Positions 17,535 to 32,299 of a stretch of DNA of 64,000 nt are shown one piece after another. Position numbers and translations under genes: made by a program. Under the pieces are notes generated by a model. It saw nothing but the letters and a program-made list of their open reading frames with translations, was not told the DNA's origin and searched no databases. Position 1 is the first letter of the stretch; every line of letters starts with the position of its first letter. The DNA lies in the NCBI GenBank assembly GCA_965112635.1, contig OZ218778.1:2812007-2876006 (forward strand). Reading direction: 5' to 3'. The DNA is from an uncultured bacterium (lineage in GTDB: Bacteria > Oederibacteriota > Oederibacteriia > Oederibacteriales > Oederibacteriaceae).

Positions 17535-17813
17535 GACCCTTCCCTCTGGTCTGGGTGCCCTTTTGATATTGCAGGGCTGCAGATCATGACCGTATCAGAT
17601 TCAATTACTATACAATAAACTTACCGGCTTCCCACGCACAATAATTGTTTGAAATTATGAAATAATCAACAAAAAATGGAACTTTTTGAAATATTTAATG
17701 TCTAATAAGTGTTAAATAATACAAGGGTGAGGTGTGCCTTTTTAATTTCTAACTTATTAAATTGTATCACCGATGATTCTAACCCATTGCACTCACCAAC
17801 GATGGCCAGGAAC

Positions 17814-17822
17814 TGGTATAAT
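17814..17822 (+). promoter_or_regulatory. Extended -10 promoter upstream of the structured leader
   Basis: TGGTATAAT about 25 nt before the RNA motif. Confidence 0.55.
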
Positions 17823-17845
17823 TAACAGAAATTTAACAAAATATC

Positions 17846-17985
17846 AAAGAACTAGCGAAAAGCCGATTGTGGATGTGAGTCCACGATGGGAGAGCTATCC
17901 GCCTGACACACCCTGAGCGGAATCTTCAAACAGGGCAGGAACTGTCAGACACAGGGGTATACCGAAAGGTTCTTTTTTATTTTTT
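17846..17985 (+). ncRNA. Structured cis-regulatory leader RNA, copy 1 (riboswitch candidate, c-di-GMP-I-like)
   Basis: Shares AAAGAACWAGCGAAAAGCCG-[GNRA hairpin]-GGGARAGCTA...YATACCGAAAKGTTCTTTTTT with the copy at 31935-32116 (-). Confidence 0.7.
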
Positions 17986-17997
17986 AGGAGGTGTCCC

Positions 17998-19988
17998 ATA
18001 AGAAGCTTTTGCAATGGAAGATCCATACTAGCTGTCCTGCTAGCTCTGGCTTCCATGCTTTTAGTCACTTCCATGCAAGCCACCTGCACTCGGTCGGTCT
18101 ATGTTTCTACCTTTGGCCAGCTGAATACGGCCATCCAAAACATCCAGAGTGGCGACTGTATCTACCTCAACCCGGGCGTCTACCATGTGACGGAGAACAG
18201 CCCGCTCAAGATAACCGGCGTCAATAATATTGTCCTCTCCAGCGCCACAGGCAACCCCGGCAGCGTGACCATCACGGGGGTCGGGTTTTGCGACGACGGT
18301 TCTGCCGGCGCCTGCTCACCCCATCAGGGTGAGCAGAACAACGATTGCCTGTGGATCGGGTGTTGCTCTGGCAGCTGCAACTCAATCACCATCACGGGTA
18401 TCACCTTTACCGAGGACTGCTATGGCATCAAGGTCACCCCGCCGACCAACGACATCGAAATTCTTAACTGCCGGTTCATCAATTTTGGATACCGCTGTAT
18501 TAAAGGAGTGGCCAGTGGTACTAATATTTTTGAAACGAACGGCCTGGTGCAAAACTGTTACTTTGAGGATAACAAGATCCCATCCTCCTGCTGGAATTCC
18601 GGCGGCGATTATATTGCCGGCATGGACATGATGTGGGACAACGGCTGGACCATTGAGGACAATACCTTTGTGAACATCAAAGGCTACGGGGGAGGCGCCC
18701 GGGCGGCTGTTTTTCTCTGGGTGGGATGTAAAAATTGTATTGTCCAAAGGAACAGGATGATCGGTTGCGACCGGGGTGTCGCGTTCGGCAACGCGAGCGG
18801 TTCTTTAAACGGCCAAAACCAGATCGCCCGCAACAACTACATCGTGGCCCCGGCCGATGACGCCATTGAGCTGGAGTCTGTGGACAGCTGCGGGGTTTAC
18901 AATAATAGTTGCTATCTGCTGGATACATCCATCCGGGGTATCTATTGCGTCGTGGACAATCCCCATGTGACCAATACCAACATCCAGAACAACATGCTGA
19001 ACAACCTGACCAGCAATCCTGCCTGGACTATCCAGACCACGGGCCTGACCTCGGGGACCGTGAATAACAATGACAAAACCGCCCCTTTATACGACTGGGT
19101 GGATCCCACCAACGGCAACCTGGATCTCACTTCTTTTGCGTCTGATGCCATCAGCCAGGGTATAAATTTGGCTGCAGTGACCCAGGATATTTACCAGCAG
19201 CCGCGGCCAAACCCGCCCTGTATCGGCGCCGACGAATATATCCCCCCACTCCGACCCAGACTTTTACCCCTTCTTCGACCTCGACCATTGGCCCGTCCGC
19301 TACCACTACATCGACCCCTTCGGTCACCCTGACCCCGTCTCTGAGCGGCACTTCCACTTCGACCACTACCATTACCCTGACCTCTTCGCAAACCGTCACC
19401 CCTTCCTTGACCGGAACCTCCACGCTGACCCTGACTTCTTCCCAGACGGCTACCATTACAGAGACCTCATCGCAAACTTCGACACCTAGTCAGACCCTAA
19501 CCTCCTCTCAGACCACCACCCCTACGGTGACCGGATCCCAGACCGTGACCTCTTCTCAAACTCTGACTTCCTCGCAGACGGCCACCATCACCAATACTCC
19601 TTACTTCACCCCGATCCCCTCCTCCACGCCGACCCCCAGCGGCCAACTGGCCATACTCCAGCACATCCCCTATCCTGACCCGTTGAAGCAGGGCAGCCTG
19701 GTCACGATATACCTTGAAATGTCAGATGTGCCCGACAGCATGTCCTTGACCCTGTATACGGTCTCAATGCGGGAGATCCGCAAGAGCACGACCGTCTCCC
19801 TCAATAGCTCCACGGGCTTGCAGGTCGTTTACGAGGGCGAAGTGGCTAACTATGCCTGCACGGTCGCCCTCGACCTGAAAGACGACCAGAACCAGGACCT
19901 GGCCAATGGACTTTACTATTACCAGATACAGGTGACCAAAGGCCCCAAGAAGGCCAAGGCCATAGGTAAATTAGTGGTCACCCGATAG
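17998..19988 (+). pseudogene. Secreted right-handed beta-helix protein with Thr-rich stalk and sorting CTD; ATA at the expected start and frameshift at C6 (19242-19247)
   Basis: AGGAGG-6nt-ATA opens a signal peptide in frame with ORF 18055..19332. One extra C at 19242-19247 would fuse it to the Thr-rich/CTD frame ending at 19988 (PYPDP...LANGLYYY). Architecture matches neighbour 20045..22090. Confidence 0.65.
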
Positions 19989-20044
19989 GCCGGCTTTGGG
20001 CGGCAACTGCCGCTGAGGCCTGCGCTCAGGAAGGAAGTCTTAAT

Positions 20045-22090
20045 TTGAACTTATCTCTGCGGATTCTCCTGTGCTTGGTTCTTTTTTCCACCCTTAGCCA
20101 CCTTCACGCCCAAACCTTTCCCCCTTTTGCCCCGGCCCTGCCGGCGCCGTTACCACCCATCATCAACGTAAACAACATTAACGCCCTATACAATGCGGTT
20201 AATACTGCGGCTTCTGGGACCACCATTTTAGTAGCCGACGGGATTTATAATCTAAATCCTAACTTGGGCGGCTTCATGGGTGCTCTGGATTTTAGAACAC
20301 CTAATGTCACACTGCGCGGCGCTTCCGGGAACCGTGAAAAATGCATTATCACTGGAACCACCATGACGGATACCTCCGCTGCCAACACCGGAATAGCCAT
20401 TAAGATAGAGGCCAACAATATAACCATCGCCAACGTTACCGTCTGCAATGTGTACTTTCATGACATTCAATTTCCGGACGCTGTATCTGCCAATAACGCC
20501 GATATCTACAACTGCTGGCTCAAGGACTCGGGCGAGATGCACATCAAAAGTTCCCAGGCCTGTACCGGCGTTTATTGCGACAACAATATCGTGGAGTGGA
20601 GCCGTCTCTCCTACACCACGACCGCCGCTACCACCCCTTATGGCAGTTGCTCGACATTCCCCTGCTATTACTATGACGCCATAGATGTCCATGCCGGCAA
20701 CAATTGGATCGTCAGGCACAACTGGTTCGTGGACGAATACCCGGTTCCGGGTGACTGGGCAAATATGGATGGCATGACCAATCCGGCTATTCTTTTTTGG
20801 AACGGCTGTGAGAATCCGCTCGTGGACAGCAATGTTTTCATCAACTGCAGTTCAGGGGTCGCCTTCGGGCTCAACCAAAATAGTGGCTGCTTTACCGGGG
20901 GCGGTTCCTACCGCACTACTGACGATTGCCATGGAGGGATCATCCGCAATAATTTCTTCTACCGTGACCCCGCCCTGACCGGGGACGTTGCCATTTATGT
21001 ATGCGGCGCCCCCAACGTTACTGTGGTGGGCAATACCATTATCCAGCCCGATGAGGGCACCACAGCCCATGGAGGCGACGATATGGAAACTAATTACAAC
21101 AACACTAAAAACGCTTATATTGTCAACAATCTGTGCTGTCTTACTCCCGTTGTCAACCGGAGTGGCTGTGCTAATTGCACGGAATTTAACAATATAACCG
21201 GAGCCACCCTCGGTTGGCTCGTCAATGGGGGTGCCAATATCACCATAACGGGAGATTGCCATCTGGTTGCCTCAGATACCCTGGCCATTGACCAGGGATT
21301 CCCCCTGGCGGGATGGGACGACTTTGATATTTTTGGGAATTCCCGGCCACAAACCTGCTCCTGTGCCTGTTATGATATCGGTGCGAATGAGTATATTTGC
21401 GGCACCAGCACCCCGACCTATACGCGCACAATGACCTATACGCCAACAATGACCTCCACGCCTGCCCCGACATCCACAGCCACATTGACGCCAGCACCAC
21501 CCACGCAAACGTCCACGATCACCCTGACGTCTTCACAAACATGTACGGTAAGCCAAACCTATACGGCTACAGAGACAGGGACGCCGGTCACCGGGACACC
21601 TACATCCACATCCACGGCCAGCGGTACGCCGACCTTTACATCGACAATCACCCCGACCCAACTCCCCTTCACGGCAACCCCTCTTTCCAGCAGCACTCCC
21701 ACAACGACCTTCACACCGACTTTTACACCAACAGCCTATATGAGCTTGAGTATTATCAAACTGCTGACCTACCCCAATCCGGTGAAGAACCAGAACAGCC
21801 TGAACTTTTATATCAATCTCAGTGACATTCCGGATCGGATCGACATCAAGGTTTATACGACAGCCGCGCGATTAATCAGGGTCATGAACTCGGCGCAGAC
21901 CAAGGCGCCCAACGGGGTTACTCTGGTAGAAGATATCTACAATGAGTGTACGTTTGCCTATTCCATTCCCTACGACCTTACAGATTGGGAAGGAAACTGG
22001 CTTGCTGACGGTATGTATTATTTCGTGGTCGAAGCCAGGAAGAGCGACACCACTGTGCGGGGCATTGGACGCTTTACCATACTGAAGTAG
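20045..22090 (+). CDS. Secreted right-handed beta-helix protein with Thr-rich stalk and sorting CTD
   Basis: Signal peptide; Asn/Cys-rich beta-helix repeats; DIGANEY; TPT stalk; TYPNP...IKVYT...LADGMYYF. Confidence 0.8.
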   Translation: MNLSLRILLCLVLFSTLSHLHAQTFPPFAPALPAPLPPIINVNNINALYNAVNTAASGTTILVADGIYNLNPNLGGFMGALDFRTPNVTLRGASGNREKCIITGTTMTDTSAANTGIAIKIEANNITIANVTVCNVYFHDIQFPDAVSANNADIYNCWLKDSGEMHIKSSQACTGVYCDNNIVEWSRLSYTTTAATTPYGSCSTFPCYYYDAIDVHAGNNWIVRHNWFVDEYPVPGDWANMDGMTNPAILFWNGCENPLVDSNVFINCSSGVAFGLNQNSGCFTGGGSYRTTDDCHGGIIRNNFFYRDPALTGDVAIYVCGAPNVTVVGNTIIQPDEGTTAHGGDDMETNYNNTKNAYIVNNLCCLTPVVNRSGCANCTEFNNITGATLGWLVNGGANITITGDCHLVASDTLAIDQGFPLAGWDDFDIFGNSRPQTCSCACYDIGANEYICGTSTPTYTRTMTYTPTMTSTPAPTSTATLTPAPPTQTSTITLTSSQTCTVSQTYTATETGTPVTGTPTSTSTASGTPTFTSTITPTQLPFTATPLSSSTPTTTFTPTFTPTAYMSLSIIKLLTYPNPVKNQNSLNFYINLSDIPDRIDIKVYTTAARLIRVMNSAQTKAPNGVTLVEDIYNECTFAYSIPYDLTDWEGNWLADGMYYFVVEARKSDTTVRGIGRFTILK

Positions 22091-30135: not shown

Positions 30136-31911
30136 TTAGAAATTTTTGCCGAATAGTTTGGTGATAAAAAAGTCCCTGTCGCCGCAGGTCTTTTCCACCT
30201 GCGGGTCTTCAAAAGCCTTGGCAATAAGCTCCCTTACATGTTCGGGATTTCTGGTATATTTTAGGATGTTTTCCTTGGCGATCTCCGGCTCATAAAGGGC
30301 CACATGCATGAGGTTGAGCCCCACGGTGAACTCGATGCTCTGGAACATGCAATAGCGCAGTAGAATACCCACCTTTCTTTTGGATAACCTGTAAGGCGGG
30401 GTCAGGCCGTTGGCCATGCTGAAAAAGAAATCCATGTAGTCCTTGACCGCCTCTTCCCTGCTGGCGCCGTCCGCCATATCCGAAGACACGGCCATGGTAA
30501 ATTTCTTTTCCGCCCCCGTCCATTTGACCTGGGTTTTCTTTTCTATCCTGCCGGCGTATTCGCCGATAAAAGTGCCCACGTTCATATTTCCGCGGTAGTC
30601 AAAAAGGTCGTCCTTGCTCAAGTACTGGCCGCAGGCCCTCAGAACCAATATCTCCACCGGGGTAAGAGAAATTTTAGGGCCCTTGAGGGGGGAATCCCCG
30701 CTGACAAAGGATATGACGAATCGGTCGTCAAAAAATTCCACGTAATTACGTACCGGTTCTATGAGAATGGGGGGCACGATGAAATTGCCGTAATCGTCCT
30801 TGGGAAAGACATTGATATGGATGGCGCCGATCTTTTCAATGGCTGCCACGAGGTGCATGGGCGTCACCAATCTGTCCTTGGGTGTTCCGTCAAAACCTTT
30901 CCACTGGTCCGCGACCAGGACACGGGACGCGCTATAAGGCATCTTGTTCTCGTTGGCTTCCGCGGCGCGGACTACAAAAGACGCCACCGTGTCGGCATCG
31001 ATCCTGATGGTGTCGATGACCTGGGGGTCGAATACAGTCGTGGCCTCTGAACCGGAGGCCAGTTTTTCCAGGTCTTCCAGGCAGCGCTTCACCTCTTTGA
31101 ACTTGGACTCAATGTTCTGGCCTGCTTTGACCAGCTCCTGGCCTGTGGCCTCCAGCTGGCTGCCCAAAGAAGAAACGGAATTGATGAGCGTCGGCAGTTT
31201 ATCCCCAAAGGCATTCCTAACTTTTAATTCGGCGGCAGAGGGGTCGCCAGCTTGGCCGGCCAGATCGCTGAACTTTTTGAGCATTTCCACATTGAATTTC
31301 AGCCCCCGCAAGAGCTGTTCATCCCGCACTGAGGCAAAGCCGGCCACAGGTCCGGCTTCCAGGCCAGCCAGTTGTTCTTTGAAAGCGGCGGCCATGGTTT
31401 CCAGCCGTTCTTTGACCTTTTCCTTCATCTGGCCCGCGCCCAAGGGAGCAGCGGGCTTGGGCCGGCGCCGGTTCTGCCGGGGGTCCAACCCAACGACCTC
31501 GCCCCGGGCAATGGCAAAGACGCGGTCTTCCATGTCCAGGATCGGGGCTGCCCAGGCGGGCCTTTTCTTCTTTTCCTCGCGGGCATTGACCAGTAATTCA
31601 TACATATTGGGCGACATGAGGTCGACCTCAAAAGATTTGCCGTTTTGGTTCACCTTAATCTTGGAGCCAAAGGCACCGGTGGACAGGAAGATCCATTGGG
31701 CATCGTTGAGATCAGGGAGTTTTTGGGTCAGAAGCCATTTTTGCAGTTGGGCGAAAGCAGCCCTGAGCTTGATGGCTTTGTTCTGGTCGTCGTCGGAATG
31801 TTTGGAGGGTGCGGCGTACACGGCCAGGGCGTCCTGCACCGTTTTGACCATCTCCGGGTCCGCGCCGGCTATCACTTCTTCAAAAGCGTTCAGTCCTTTT
31901 TTATCTAACAC
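30136..31911 (-). CDS. Hypothetical cytoplasmic protein with central coiled coil, downstream of leader RNA copy 2
   Basis: 591 aa ORF with host-like codon usage; GTG start after a purine-rich RBS; no family recognised. Confidence 0.75.
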   Translation of the reverse strand: MLDKKGLNAFEEVIAGADPEMVKTVQDALAVYAAPSKHSDDDQNKAIKLRAAFAQLQKWLLTQKLPDLNDAQWIFLSTGAFGSKIKVNQNGKSFEVDLMSPNMYELLVNAREEKKKRPAWAAPILDMEDRVFAIARGEVVGLDPRQNRRRPKPAAPLGAGQMKEKVKERLETMAAAFKEQLAGLEAGPVAGFASVRDEQLLRGLKFNVEMLKKFSDLAGQAGDPSAAELKVRNAFGDKLPTLINSVSSLGSQLEATGQELVKAGQNIESKFKEVKRCLEDLEKLASGSEATTVFDPQVIDTIRIDADTVASFVVRAAEANENKMPYSASRVLVADQWKGFDGTPKDRLVTPMHLVAAIEKIGAIHINVFPKDDYGNFIVPPILIEPVRNYVEFFDDRFVISFVSGDSPLKGPKISLTPVEILVLRACGQYLSKDDLFDYRGNMNVGTFIGEYAGRIEKKTQVKWTGAEKKFTMAVSSDMADGASREEAVKDYMDFFFSMANGLTPPYRLSKRKVGILLRYCMFQSIEFTVGLNLMHVALYEPEIAKENILKYTRNPEHVRELIAKAFEDPQVEKTCGDRDFFITKLFGKNF

Positions 31912-31934: not shown

Positions 31935-32116
31935 AAAAAATAAAAAAAGAACATTTCGGTATGCTCCTTGTTCCTTAAACGGCGTTGTTTTACCGGAGAC
32001 CTGAGAACTTCCCCGCAACCCGTTCTTTAAGCTGAAAAAGCTTTGTGGCTTTTTTCAGCAGGAGGTTAGCTTTCCCACCCAGACTTTCATCTGAGCCGGC
32101 TTTTCGCTTGTTCTTT
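31935..32116 (-). ncRNA. Structured cis-regulatory leader RNA, copy 2 (riboswitch candidate)
   Basis: Same conserved blocks as 17846-17985; hairpin GCTCAGA-TGAAAG-TCTGGGT; preceded by TAGACA-16-TAAAAT at 32197-32170. Confidence 0.7.
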
Positions 32117-32299
32117 CTATTTTCCCGGCCGATTCTAAAAATGATTGACCGGGTGTTTCAAATTTGAGTATTTTACAACAATGCTCGAACTTGTCTAGAT
32201 GTTTTTTAGGAAAAAACGAAAACTGGTACTATTTTTCAGAGGAACGGCTCAGCTCGTGATCCAGCTTGGAGTTAATGGACTGTGGATTAATCCGGGGTT

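What the first reader, a model, noticed from the sequence alone, without database searches (positions are those of the whole stretch)
17846..17985. One structured leader RNA occurs twice (17846+ and 32116-): candidate new riboswitch or c-di-GMP-I variant
Seen in sequence: two unrelated 5' UTRs share AAAGAACWAGCGAAAAGCCG, then a hairpin, then GGGARAGCTAWCC.CCTG, a variable structured insert, and GGRGYATACCGAAAKGTTCTTTTTT(T)ATTTTTTA. The hairpin changes sequence but keeps pairing (ATTGTGGA/TCCACGAT vs GCTCAGA/TCTGGGT). Both loops are GNRA tetraloops closed by U-G (U-GUGA-G, U-GAAA-G). AAAGAAC pairs with GTTCTTT and runs into a U tract. Each copy sits between a sigma70-like promoter and an RBS. 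Established knowledge: c-di-GMP-I (GEMM) aptamers have a GNRA-capped P2, an AAAGC junction and a 3' UACCG/UGCCG. Here the diagnostic GGCAAA...GACGC is replaced by GCGAAAAGCCG...GGG. Inference: a variant nucleotide-second-messenger riboswitch controlling surface-protein genes and an unknown 591-aa protein.
Basis: partly seen in the sequence, partly recalled or inferred. Interest (0 to 1): 0.85.

Follow-up and report, generated by a model that had tools for sequence, protein, structure and literature searches.

The report
Divergent c-di-GMP-I riboswitch missed by Rfam
The repeated leader is a real structured RNA, present ten times in this genome, and it is a compact, lineage-specific offshoot of the known c-di-GMP class I riboswitch that the standard Rfam model fails to recognise.

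Summary
Both copies are real: window 17844-17983 (+) and 31938-32118 (-). They belong to a set of 10 leaders in this genome. Helices covary: 91.6% of cells pair, 15 of 26 pairs change on both sides, and 0 of 500 shuffles reach this.

No copy reaches an Rfam gathering score. Homology to c-di-GMP-I (GEMM-I, RF01051) is still secure:
- One copy aligns full-length at 26.1 bits against a cut-off of 35.
- My model of the variant detects 12 of 26 canonical RF01051 loci from related genomes.
- One regulated gene family, a PorV/FadL-like protein, sits behind canonical GEMM-I in relatives.

The ligand-contact positions G20, A47 and C92 are kept in 14 of 14 variants. The P2 internal loop with C44 is collapsed to a single G.G. 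The C44-G83 interhelical pair is gone. The G21-C46 pair is flipped in 12 of 14, and A48 is G in 7 of 14.

Most likely it senses c-di-GMP. The direction of switching is less sure: P1 runs straight into a U tract in 5 copies here, and the aptamer holds an SD-like run and start codon in 3.

Verdict: a new structural variant of a known class, of moderate interest.

The parts
17814..17822 (+). Copy B: extended -10 promoter element TGGTATAAT, about 24 nt before P1
   Evidence: Read. The consensus scan found no -35/-10 pair on this strand here.
17844..17983 (+). Copy B: whole riboswitch leader (aptamer plus U tract)
   Evidence: R1 hit at 101.5 bits, E 1.6e-23. R2 hit at 89.7 bits. No Rfam hit at E<=10.
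17846..17852 (+). Copy B: P1 5' strand AAAGAAC. It pairs with 17969-17975. The apical P1 pairs are C17856-G17964 and G17857-C17963 (G14-C93 equivalent).
   Evidence: (helices 1 and 2).
17858..17865 (+). Copy B: J1/2 AAAA, the G20 equivalent (G17862), the CC of the junction pairs (C17863-G17890, C17864-G17889), and G17865 of the G.G mismatch with G17888
   Evidence: (pair 22-52: CG 11, GC 2).
17866..17887 (+). Copy B: P2 hairpin, 9 pairs, with GNRA loop GUGA at 17875-17878
17891..17900 (+). Copy B: A47 equivalent (A17891), position 48 (G17892), and the P3 5' strand AGCU-AU-CC
   Evidence: (helix 4).
17901..17953 (+). Copy B: variable upper P3 (CUGACA/UGUCAG plus an inner hairpin) and the 3' ACACA internal loop
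   Evidence: Length varies between copies.
17954..17964 (+). Copy B: P3 3' strand GGGGUAU, then A91 and C92 equivalents (A17961, C17962), then the CG of apical P1
17969..17985 (+). Copy B: P1 3' strand GUUCUUU running directly into UUUAUUUUUU. This is the proposed ligand-gated terminator.
   Evidence: No separate short-loop terminator was found. The same arrangement occurs in 9 of 14 variants.
17986..19332 (+). Copy B: SD AGGAGG (17986-17991) and the first regulated gene. It is a secreted beta-helix paralogue, 425 aa from the ATG at 18055. The signal peptide is in frame only from ATA at 17998.
   Evidence: 53% identity to gene C, which carries Beta_helix and CBM_11.
19407..22090 (+). Two further same-strand ORFs behind copy B: 193 aa (Thr/Ser-rich plus a shared C-terminal domain) and 681 aa (a full paralogue with its own signal peptide)
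   Evidence: (no Pfam family).
32132..32161 (-). Copy D: sigma-70-like promoter TTGAAA-18-TAGAAT
   Evidence: 10 of 12 matches.
31938..32118 (-). Copy D: whole riboswitch leader with a roughly 96-nt branched P3 insert
   Evidence: R1 hit at 102.4 bits. R2 hit at 91.5 bits. No clan CL00126 hit at E<=10.
32097..32116 (-). Copy D: P1 5' strand AAAGAAC (32116-32110), apical CG (32106-32105), J1/2 AAAA, G20 equivalent (G32100), and CC-G (32099-32097)
32077..32096 (-). Copy D: P2 hairpin with GAAA loop at 32088-32085
32064..32076 (-). Copy D: G-GG (32076-32074), A47-A48-A49 equivalents (32073-32071), and P3 5' strand GCU-AA-CC
31957..31967 (-). Copy D: P3 3' strand GGAGCAU, A91 and C92 equivalents (31960, 31959), and the CG of apical P1
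31934..31952 (-). Copy D: P1 3' strand GUUCUUU plus UUUUAUUUUUU
   Evidence: No separate terminator hairpin was found.
30136..31911 (-). Copy D: regulated gene, 591 aa, GTG start, with no Pfam family. It is followed by ribulose-phosphate 3-epimerase and ffh.

Best explanation
The leader is a c-di-GMP class I (GEMM-I) riboswitch aptamer in a compact, lineage-specific form.

What is kept and what has changed. It keeps the three-helix junction: P1, a GNRA-capped P2 and P3. It keeps the nucleotides that contact c-di-GMP in the Vibrio Vc2 structure: G20, A47, C92 and the G14-C93 apex of P1. The P2 internal loop (A23-A25 / G42-C44) has been replaced by continuous helix with one G.G mismatch. The G21-C46 pair is flipped to C-G. 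The C44-G83 interhelical pair is lost, and in most copies so is the 11-nt tetraloop receptor.

How it most likely works (inferred). The RNA still binds c-di-GMP. Binding closes P1.
- In five copies of this genome, including both window copies, and in four copies in another family of the phylum, the 3' strand of P1 runs directly into 6-9 U. The ligand-locked P1 would then itself act as an intrinsic terminator stem, switching transcription OFF.
- In three other copies the start codon follows ACCG directly, and an SD-like AAGGGG lies in the P3 3' strand. Folding would then hide the ribosome site, switching translation OFF.

What it controls. The regulon is secreted beta-helix/CBM proteins with a shared C-terminal domain, a giant ORF, a PorV/FadL-like outer-membrane protein, two STAS proteins, and unknowns including the 591-aa protein.

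Shown: the structure, the homology and the gene context. Inferred: the ligand, the polarity, and P1 acting as terminator.
For: Structure:
- There are 10 copies in the genome.
- P1, P2, the junction pair and P3 covary: 91.6% of cells pair, 15 of 26 pairs show double changes, 0 of 500 shuffles reach this, and slid controls give 33-49%.
- The junction pair and lower P3 were not part of the model that made that alignment.
- RNAalifold on a plain MAFFT alignment found P2 and the CC/GG pairs unaided.

Homology:
- Copy J aligns over all 87 positions of RF01051 at 26.1 bits.
- Model R2 finds 12 of 26 canonical RF01051 loci of related genomes at E<=1, best 41.3 bits, at the same places.
- The junction pair is C-G in 12 of 14 variants and G-C in copies I and J, as in the canonical form.

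Pocket:
- G20, A47, A49, C92 and G14-C93 are kept in 14 of 14 variants.
- Their roles come from passages of PMC3764141, PMC4744006 and PMC11705072.

Same biology:
- Homologues of the gene behind copy H lie directly downstream of canonical RF01051 hits in 8 of 26 loci of relatives (orientation worked out). They are UPF0164/PorV-like.
- The genome gives 10 GGDEF matches and has no canonical c-di-GMP-I or -II over cut-off.

Expression platform:
- The U tract follows P1 immediately in 9 of 14 variants, while the P1 sequence itself differs (GAAC/GUUC against GAUA/UAUC).
- No separate terminator hairpin is present.
- In F, G and H a start codon follows ACCG.
Against: - No copy reaches any Rfam gathering score. 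Eight of the ten give no hit at all to the c-di-GMP-I clan, searched at E<=10 for seven of them and E<=1 for H and I.
- C44 is replaced by G in 14 of 14 variants, and the G83 position is A or C.
- In Vc2 the G83C, C44G/G83C and A62G mutants were made to disrupt the two long-range contacts. The authors state that the C44G/G83C swap did not recover ligand binding (PMC11705072 passages). PMC4744006 calls this pair universally conserved in GEMM.
- A48, listed as a key recognition nucleotide that forms a Hoogsteen pair with U90, is G in 7 of 14.
- P1 is AU-rich. It appears in the minimum-energy fold of only 4 of 10 leaders: A, E, D and G.
- Purine-rich stretches of P3 could pair locally with GUUCUUU in A, B and D (my reading). 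That would give the opposite polarity.
- The true start of the giant ORF behind copy G is uncertain.
- There are no binding, transcription or expression data.
Confidence: 0.7

Rival explanations
1. The RNA is GEMM-I-derived but has changed its ligand. The remodelled junction, with no C44-G83 pair and with G at position 48, would then sense another dinucleotide or nucleotide signal, for example 3',3'-cGAMP, pGpG or c-di-AMP.
For: - Rare variants of riboswitch classes often have new ligands (titles and abstracts listed).
- Position 48 is G in 7 of 14 variants and C44 is lost in 14 of 14.
- Vc2 does not tolerate the C44G/G83C swap.
- Copy F's only clan hit is to the orphan c-di-GMP-I-GGC family, at 17.9 bits.
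Against: - G20, A47 and C92 are unchanged in 14 of 14.
- The cGAMP-type change G20A (recalled, not from a call) is absent.
- Position 48 is A or G among otherwise near-identical leaders (D against A), so it behaves as neutral.
- Copy H's gene family is under canonical GEMM-I in relatives.
- The register supported by covariation puts A, not G, at position 47.
Confidence: 0.12
2. The ligand is the same but the polarity is opposite in the terminator-type copies. A local hairpin between a purine-rich 3' part of P3 and GUUCUUU would be the real terminator. Ligand-stabilised P1 would compete with it, so that c-di-GMP turns the genes ON.
For: - Local pairings exist in D (AAGGAACA/UGUUCUUU, 8 pairs), B (AGGAAC/GUUCUU) and A (AAAGGAU/GUUCUUU). 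This is my reading.
- P1 encloses 90-170 nt, which is unusual for a terminator.
- GEMM riboswitches of both polarities are known (PMC9262584 passages).
Against: - The local partner is not conserved in position or sequence. It is weak in E and C, and I could not find one in the copies from the other family.
- Such pairings are expected between purine-rich and U-rich stretches.
- The scan finds no terminator hairpin.
- Copies F and H look like OFF switches, since the SD-like run and start codon lie inside the aptamer.
Confidence: 0.2
3. It is not a ligand-sensing RNA. It would be a protein-bound leader, or a decayed relic of GEMM-I that now serves only as a constitutive attenuator.
For: There is no experimental evidence for binding. 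Two long-range contacts needed by Vc2 are missing. The distribution is narrow: 4 of 99 genomes of the phylum.
Against: - Ten copies in one genome keep every junction nucleotide invariant while the stems covary. That indicates selection on a pocket.
- The copies sit before unrelated genes.
- Three different expression-platform designs share one aptamer.
Confidence: 0.05
4. It is an entirely new riboswitch class, unrelated to GEMM-I, that resembles it only by convergence.
For: No Rfam family reaches its threshold.
Against: - There is a full-length alignment to RF01051.
- The variant model detects canonical GEMM-I loci and vice versa.
- Copies I and J are intermediate forms.
- A regulated gene family is shared with canonical GEMM-I.
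Confidence: 0.02

Closest known systems
c-di-GMP-I riboswitch (GEMM-I, Rfam RF01051; Vc2 of Vibrio cholerae, Cd1 of Clostridioides difficile)
   Same: - The order of elements is the same: P1, A-rich J1/2, G20, two junction pairs, GNRA-capped P2, A47-A49, P3 with a 3' bulge, then U-A-C92-C93-G94.
- G20, A47, A49, C92 and G14-C93 are kept in 14 of 14 variants.
- It lies in 5' leaders of surface and signalling genes.
- One gene family is shared with canonical copies in relatives.
- The two models detect each other's members.
   Different: - The score is below the gathering cut-off in 10 of 10 copies.
- The P2 internal loop A23-A25/G42-C44 is replaced by helix plus one G.G.
- C44 is G, and G83 is A or C, so the conserved interhelical Watson-Crick pair cannot form as in Vc2.
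- G21-C46 is flipped to C-G in 12 of 14.
- A48 is G in 7 of 14.
- A receptor-like CCUAAA...UAUGG is seen only in copy J.
- P1 abuts the U tract directly.
c-di-GMP-I-GGC variant (Rfam RF03167, orphan)
   Same: It belongs to the same clan (CL00126). It is the only clan hit for copy F, at 17.9 bits against a cut-off of 59.
   Different: The RF03167 consensus printed has G at the position after the GC junction pair (GCGA.AgCc). The register supported by covariation puts A there in all 14 variants. RF03167 keeps the AAA/GAC loop.
3',3'-cGAMP riboswitches (GEMM-Ib, e.g. Geobacter pilM)
   Same: The GEMM-I scaffold is shared. That family shows the scaffold can change ligand and polarity (PMC9262584 passages).
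   Different: The specificity change at position 20 (G to A; recalled, not from a call) is absent here. G is present in 14 of 14.
c-di-GMP-II riboswitch (Rfam RF01786)
   Same: It has the same presumed ligand and a similar kind of regulon.
   Different: It is an unrelated fold. The only match in this genome scores 25.8 bits against a cut-off of 53.5, and it lies elsewhere.

Membership tests
c-di-GMP-I (RF01051) | Score at or above the Rfam gathering cut-off of 35 bits | tested here: not met
   0 of 10 copies reach it. The best is J at 26.1 bits. F hits only RF03167, at 17.9 bits. The other eight give no clan hit, searched at E<=10 for A, E, C, G, B and D and at E<=1 for H and I.
c-di-GMP-I (RF01051) | Three-helix junction P1/P2/P3 in the canonical order, supported by covariation | tested here: met
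   26 pairs, 91.6% paired, 15 with double changes, 0 of 500 shuffles. One search gives the full-length alignment of copy J.
c-di-GMP-I (RF01051) | Ligand-contact nucleotides G20, A47 and C92 (Vc2 numbering; PMC4744006, PMC3764141) | tested here: met
   G, A and C in 14 of 14 variants in alignment A4. The register is fixed by the covarying junction pair.
c-di-GMP-I (RF01051) | Junction pairs G21-C46 and C22-G45, and G14-C93 at the apex of P1 | tested here: met
   All are paired. The 21-46 pair is C-G in 12 of 14 and G-C in I and J. The 22-45 pair is C-G or U-G. The 14-93 pair is G-C in 14 of 14.
c-di-GMP-I (RF01051) | P2 internal loop with conserved A23, A25, G42 and C44 | tested here: not met
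   It is replaced by one G opposite one G (or GA opposite G or GG in I, J and the copies of the other family). Six of six canonical relatives keep C44, and five of six keep A at position 23.
c-di-GMP-I (RF01051) | Interhelical Watson-Crick pair C44-G83, called 'universally conserved among GEMM' in PMC4744006 | tested here: not met
   Position 44 is G in 14 of 14. The nucleotide 5' of the P3 3' strand is A in the ten copies here and C in the four of the other family. A substitute contact cannot be tested because there is no variation.
c-di-GMP-I (RF01051) | GNRA tetraloop on P2 docking into a receptor in P3 | tested here: inconclusive
   The loop is GNRA in 14 of 14: GUAA 3, GAAA 8, GCGA 2, GUGA 1. 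A CCUAAA...UAUGG-like receptor is seen only in J. The other copies have a plain CCU/AGG or CU/AG helix at that height. That is compatible with GYRA-helix docking (PMC7913685, abstract start seen in the listing), but docking is not shown.
c-di-GMP-I (RF01051) | A48, which forms a Hoogsteen pair with U90 and is listed as a key recognition nucleotide | tested here: inconclusive
   A in 7 of 14 and G in 7 of 14. Its roles come from passages of PMC3764141 and PMC11705072.
c-di-GMP-I (RF01051) | Selective binding of c-di-GMP | not testable with these tools
   This needs in-line probing, ITC or equilibrium dialysis.
c-di-GMP-I-GGC (RF03167) | G at the position after the junction pair (consensus GCGA.AgCc) and a score of at least 59 bits | tested here: not met
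   17.9 bits for F only. Position 47 is A in 14 of 14 under the register supported by covariation.
cGAMP-sensing GEMM-Ib | A at position 20 (recalled from the literature, not from a call) | tested here: not met
   G in 14 of 14.
c-di-GMP-II (RF01786) | Score at or above 53.5 bits | tested here: not met
   No hit at either leader. The only match in the genome scores 25.8 bits and lies elsewhere.

The most novel reading that the evidence does not exclude
This compact GEMM-I fold holds P2 and P3 together with a different set of tertiary contacts: a G.G mismatch, a conserved ACA bulge and GYRA-helix docking. These would replace the C44-G83 pair and the 11-nt receptor. As a consequence, it either senses a ligand other than c-di-GMP, or it uses the ligand-locked P1 helix itself as the intrinsic terminator, with no separate expression platform.
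Probability: 0.2. Interest if true: 0.7.

Novelty: new variant of a known kind. Interest (0 to 1): 0.45.

Why it matters
- It shows a blind spot of the standard annotation. A genome with 10 GGDEF matches and ten c-di-GMP-type leaders is scored as having no c-di-GMP riboswitch at all.
- It is a natural test of which GEMM-I features are truly needed. The C44-G83 pair and the P2 internal loop are called universal, and Vc2 does not tolerate their loss, yet they are dispensed with here while the pocket nucleotides are kept.
- It ties a set of otherwise unannotatable secreted, giant and outer-membrane proteins, and the 591-aa protein, to second-messenger control in a poorly studied phylum.
- The direct fusion of P1 to a U tract would, if confirmed, be a minimal riboswitch design.

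Tried and rejected
- Rfam at gathering threshold on the whole window gave 0 matches. Rfam at E<=10 on each leader gave only noise.
- The classical terminator scan on both leaders gave 0 sites.
- An IUPAC pattern for the main type with a short P3 gave 10 stretches in genome contigs and 58 in metagenome contigs. None matched model R2, at E<=1 and E<=0.1 respectively. They are chance hits, many in one recurrent 85-nt stretch. Records of this genome or close kin may be left out of those collections. Long-P3 copies and the type found in the other family were not covered by the pattern.
- RNA evidence: no RNA holder was listed for window 17600-18400.
- Pfam found nothing for the genes behind copies A, E, B, D and F, for the first 4050 residues of the giant ORF behind G, or for the two ORFs after B. 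The protein atlas gave only unnamed clusters at 0.91 for the 591-aa protein, with recognition below the stated level, so it was not used.
- A mobile or repeat element was rejected. Identity is confined to junction nucleotides, the stems covary, and the flanks and downstream genes differ.
- A class unrelated to GEMM was rejected.
- Membership of c-di-GMP-I-GGC was rejected.
- I looked for a conserved antiterminator or a local terminator in copies A-E. I found only non-conserved purine/U-rich pairings. This is kept as a rival, not adopted.
- Literature searches listed no paper describing a GEMM-I subtype without C44/G83. That covers only the held open-access library. Supplementary alignments were not opened and might list such sequences. 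One example is the variant-riboswitch survey behind RF03167, which I recall but did not read. PMC11109978 was read by passages and held nothing relevant.

Full report
OBSERVATION

The two leaders are as described. Copy B lies at window 17844-17983 (+) and copy D at 31938-32118 (-). They share four blocks:
- a 5' block, AAAGAAC-NAG-CG-AAAAG-CC-G;
- a hairpin whose sequence differs but whose pairing is kept, capped by GUGA or GAAA;
- GGGARAGCUAWCC;
- after a variable insert, GGRGYAUACCGAAAKGUUCUUUUUU.

Rfam gives nothing at gathering threshold for the whole window and only noise at E<=10 for either leader.

MORE COPIES

A 12-mer from the 5' block occurs exactly 6 times in the 2.88 Mb genome. Four of these are leaders of the same kind and two are unrelated sequence. 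Motif scans found three more, two of them shorter and more divergent, with a different P1.

A covariance model from 7 copies (A2, R1) finds 10 places in the genome at E 1.9e-27 to 1.8e-8. Each lies upstream of a gene on the same strand.

The genome has no relative at family level. In the 99 genomes held for its phylum, the refined model R2 matches only this genome (10 copies) and three genomes of one genus in another family (1, 2 and 1 copies).

STRUCTURE

RNAalifold on the plain MAFFT alignment already gave P2 and two C-G pairs beneath it.

On the 13-sequence alignment A3 I counted a 26-pair structure: P1, apical P1, the junction pair, P2 and lower P3.
- 91.6% of cells pair, against 33-49% when the partners are slid.
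- 15 pairs change on both sides.
- 0 of 500 shuffles reach any of the five measures.

The junction pair and lower P3 were not in the model that produced A3, so those counts are not circular. P1 and P2 were in that model. The sequences are related, so the shuffle control overstates.

ViennaRNA puts P2 in the minimum-energy fold of 10 of 10 leaders. It puts the outer P1 in only 4 of 10: A, E, D and G.

WHAT IT IS

Copy J (genome 991762-991839) aligns over all 87 positions of RF01051 (c-di-GMP-I) at 26.1 bits against a cut-off of 35. That alignment gives the map below.

- Canonical: AAaG-GC-AAA-[P2 GNRA]-GAC-GC-AA-[AgCc-A-cgGguC ... Gac-AG-Ccg-gGc.U]-gCCgaa
- This family: AAAG-CC-G-[P2 GNRA]-G-GG-AR-[AGCU-AW-CC ... 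ACA-GG-RGC-A-U]-ACCGAA

The pair written GC/GC is C-G in 12 of 14 variants. It is G-C in copies I and J, as in the canonical form. This is a compensatory flip that fixes the register.

Canonical RF01051 riboswitches over the cut-off occur in 10 of 99 genomes of the phylum, and in none of this genome's leaders. R2 finds 12 of those 26 loci at E<=1 (best 41.3 bits), full-length and at the same places. Homology is therefore secure, even though eight of the ten copies give no clan hit. Copy F gives only 17.9 bits to the orphan c-di-GMP-I-GGC family.

COMPARISON WITH THE SOLVED APTAMER

These points come from passages read in PMC3764141, PMC4744006 and PMC11705072:
- G20, A47 and C92 contact the ligand.
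- G21-C46 and C22-G45 close P2.
- G14-C93 caps P1.
- A48 forms a Hoogsteen pair with U90.
- A25-G42 and C44 lie in a P2 internal loop.
- C44 pairs with the bulged G83 of P3. [quoted passage not shown]
- A GAAA tetraloop docks on a receptor in P3.
- The G83C, C44G/G83C and A62G mutants were designed to disrupt the two long-range contacts. For the C44G/G83C swap the authors state that ligand binding was not recovered.

In alignment A4, which holds 14 variants and 6 canonical relatives:
- G20, A47, A49, C92 and G14-C93 are kept in 14 of 14 variants.
- Position 44 is G in 14 of 14 variants, against C in 6 of 6 canonical relatives.
- The 3x3 internal loop has become helix with one G.G.
- The nucleotide at the G83 position is A (or C in the other family), within a conserved ACA bulge.
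- A48 is G in 7 of 14.
- P2 is capped by GNRA in 14 of 14: GUAA 3, GAAA 8, GCGA 2, GUGA 1.
- Only copy J has a receptor-like CCUAAA...UAUGG.

The other copies have CCU/AGG or CU/AG helices at the matching height. This would suit GYRA-helix docking (PMC7913685; I saw only the abstract start, in the listing). A replacement for C44-G83, for example the mismatch G with the C of ACA, is conceivable. It cannot be tested, because these positions do not vary.

LIGAND

I infer c-di-GMP, for four reasons:
- The pocket nucleotides are intact.
- Position 48 varies between A and G among otherwise near-identical leaders.
- The genome gives 10 GGDEF matches but has no canonical class I or II riboswitch over cut-off.
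- Of 14 query proteins, only the one behind copy H has homologues next to canonical GEMM-I in relatives. It has them directly downstream of the RF01051 hit in 8 of 26 loci (orientation checked). These are UPF0164/FadL/PorV-like outer-membrane proteins.

Against this, the lost tertiary contacts matter in Vc2, and nothing has been measured.

EXPRESSION PLATFORMS

I see three designs.

(i) Copies A-E, including both window copies, and all four copies of the other family. The P1 3' strand is followed at once by 6-9 U. The P1 sequence itself differs between lineages (GAAC/GUUC, GAUA/UAUC, A/U-only). No separate terminator hairpin is found. I propose that the ligand-locked P1 is the terminator stem, which gives an OFF switch.

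(ii) Copies F, G and H. AUG or GUG follows ACCG directly, and an SD-like AAGGGG lies in the P3 3' strand. That gives a translational OFF switch. For G the true start of the giant ORF is uncertain.

(iii) Copies I and J have about 125-137 nt of further leader, including a shared roughly 40-nt element. I did not resolve these.

The polarity of (i) is the weakest inference. Local purine/U-rich pairings in A, B and D could give the opposite logic.

REGULON

- B (425 aa) and C (940 aa, with Beta_helix and CBM_11) are paralogues.
- A (912 aa), E, C and the ORFs after B share a C-terminal domain behind Thr/Ser-rich linkers.
- G precedes an ORF open for 6052 codons with no Pfam hit in its first 4050 residues.
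- I and J precede STAS proteins.
- D (591 aa) and F (295 aa) have no family.
- In the other family the variant precedes GAF-PAS proteins.

The window context is ordinary. A chorismate-binding enzyme lies divergent from B. A pfkB kinase lies upstream of D, and rpe and ffh lie downstream.

VERDICT

This is a new structural variant of a known class. It is narrow in distribution: 4 of 99 genomes of the phylum, and pattern scans of the two large collections gave only chance hits. It is missed by Rfam. No RNA run was listed, and nothing here tests binding.

Noticed in passing
window 17986-18057: The gene behind copy B has a good SD (AGGAGG). A typical signal peptide is in frame only from ATA at 17998, 6 nt after the SD. 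The first ATG, GTG or TTG in that frame is at 18055, inside the signal peptide. Either ATA serves as a rare start codon, or the start has been damaged.
   Followed up: partly
window 18055-19988: Gene B (425 aa) matches residues 8-404 of the 940-aa paralogue C. The next ORF (19407-19988, 193 aa) matches C's Thr/Ser-rich linker and C-terminal domain. B looks like a C-type gene split in two.
   Followed up: partly
L026 1280-3663 (genome 212780-215163): The gene behind copy E is split into overlapping ORFs of 221 and 693 aa. Together they match the 912-aa gene behind copy A. This is probably a frameshift near residue 100.
   Followed up: partly
genome 2639993-2658151 (-), partly in L029: An ORF open for 6052 codons lies behind copy G. 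Its first 4050 residues have no Pfam family. One segment resembles gene A (47% identity over 212 aa).
   Followed up: partly
L031 about 800-900 and L032 about 860-960 (downstream of copies I and J): The two STAS-gene leaders share a conserved element of about 40 nt (UUUCUUUAAUUAC...CUGUUUCC..CCAAUUAGA) after the aptamer. In copy I the 5' strand of P1 can instead pair with this region. This may be a distinct expression platform.
   Followed up: no
L055, L056, L057, L060-L064 (relatives G043, G002, G059): Canonical c-di-GMP-I riboswitches in another family of the phylum repeatedly precede UPF0164/FadL/PorV-like outer-membrane protein genes. This suggests c-di-GMP control of a secretion or outer-membrane component across the phylum.
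   Followed up: partly
genome 1468706-1468774 (+) and 1326412-1326499 (-): There is a weak sub-threshold match to c-di-GMP-II (25.8 bits) and a second weak match to c-di-GMP-I (18.5 bits), both outside the ten copies. I did not examine them.
   Followed up: no
L025 1470-1640; L023: In the other family, the variant riboswitch with P1 plus U tract precedes GAF-PAS signalling proteins of about 375 aa.
   Followed up: partly
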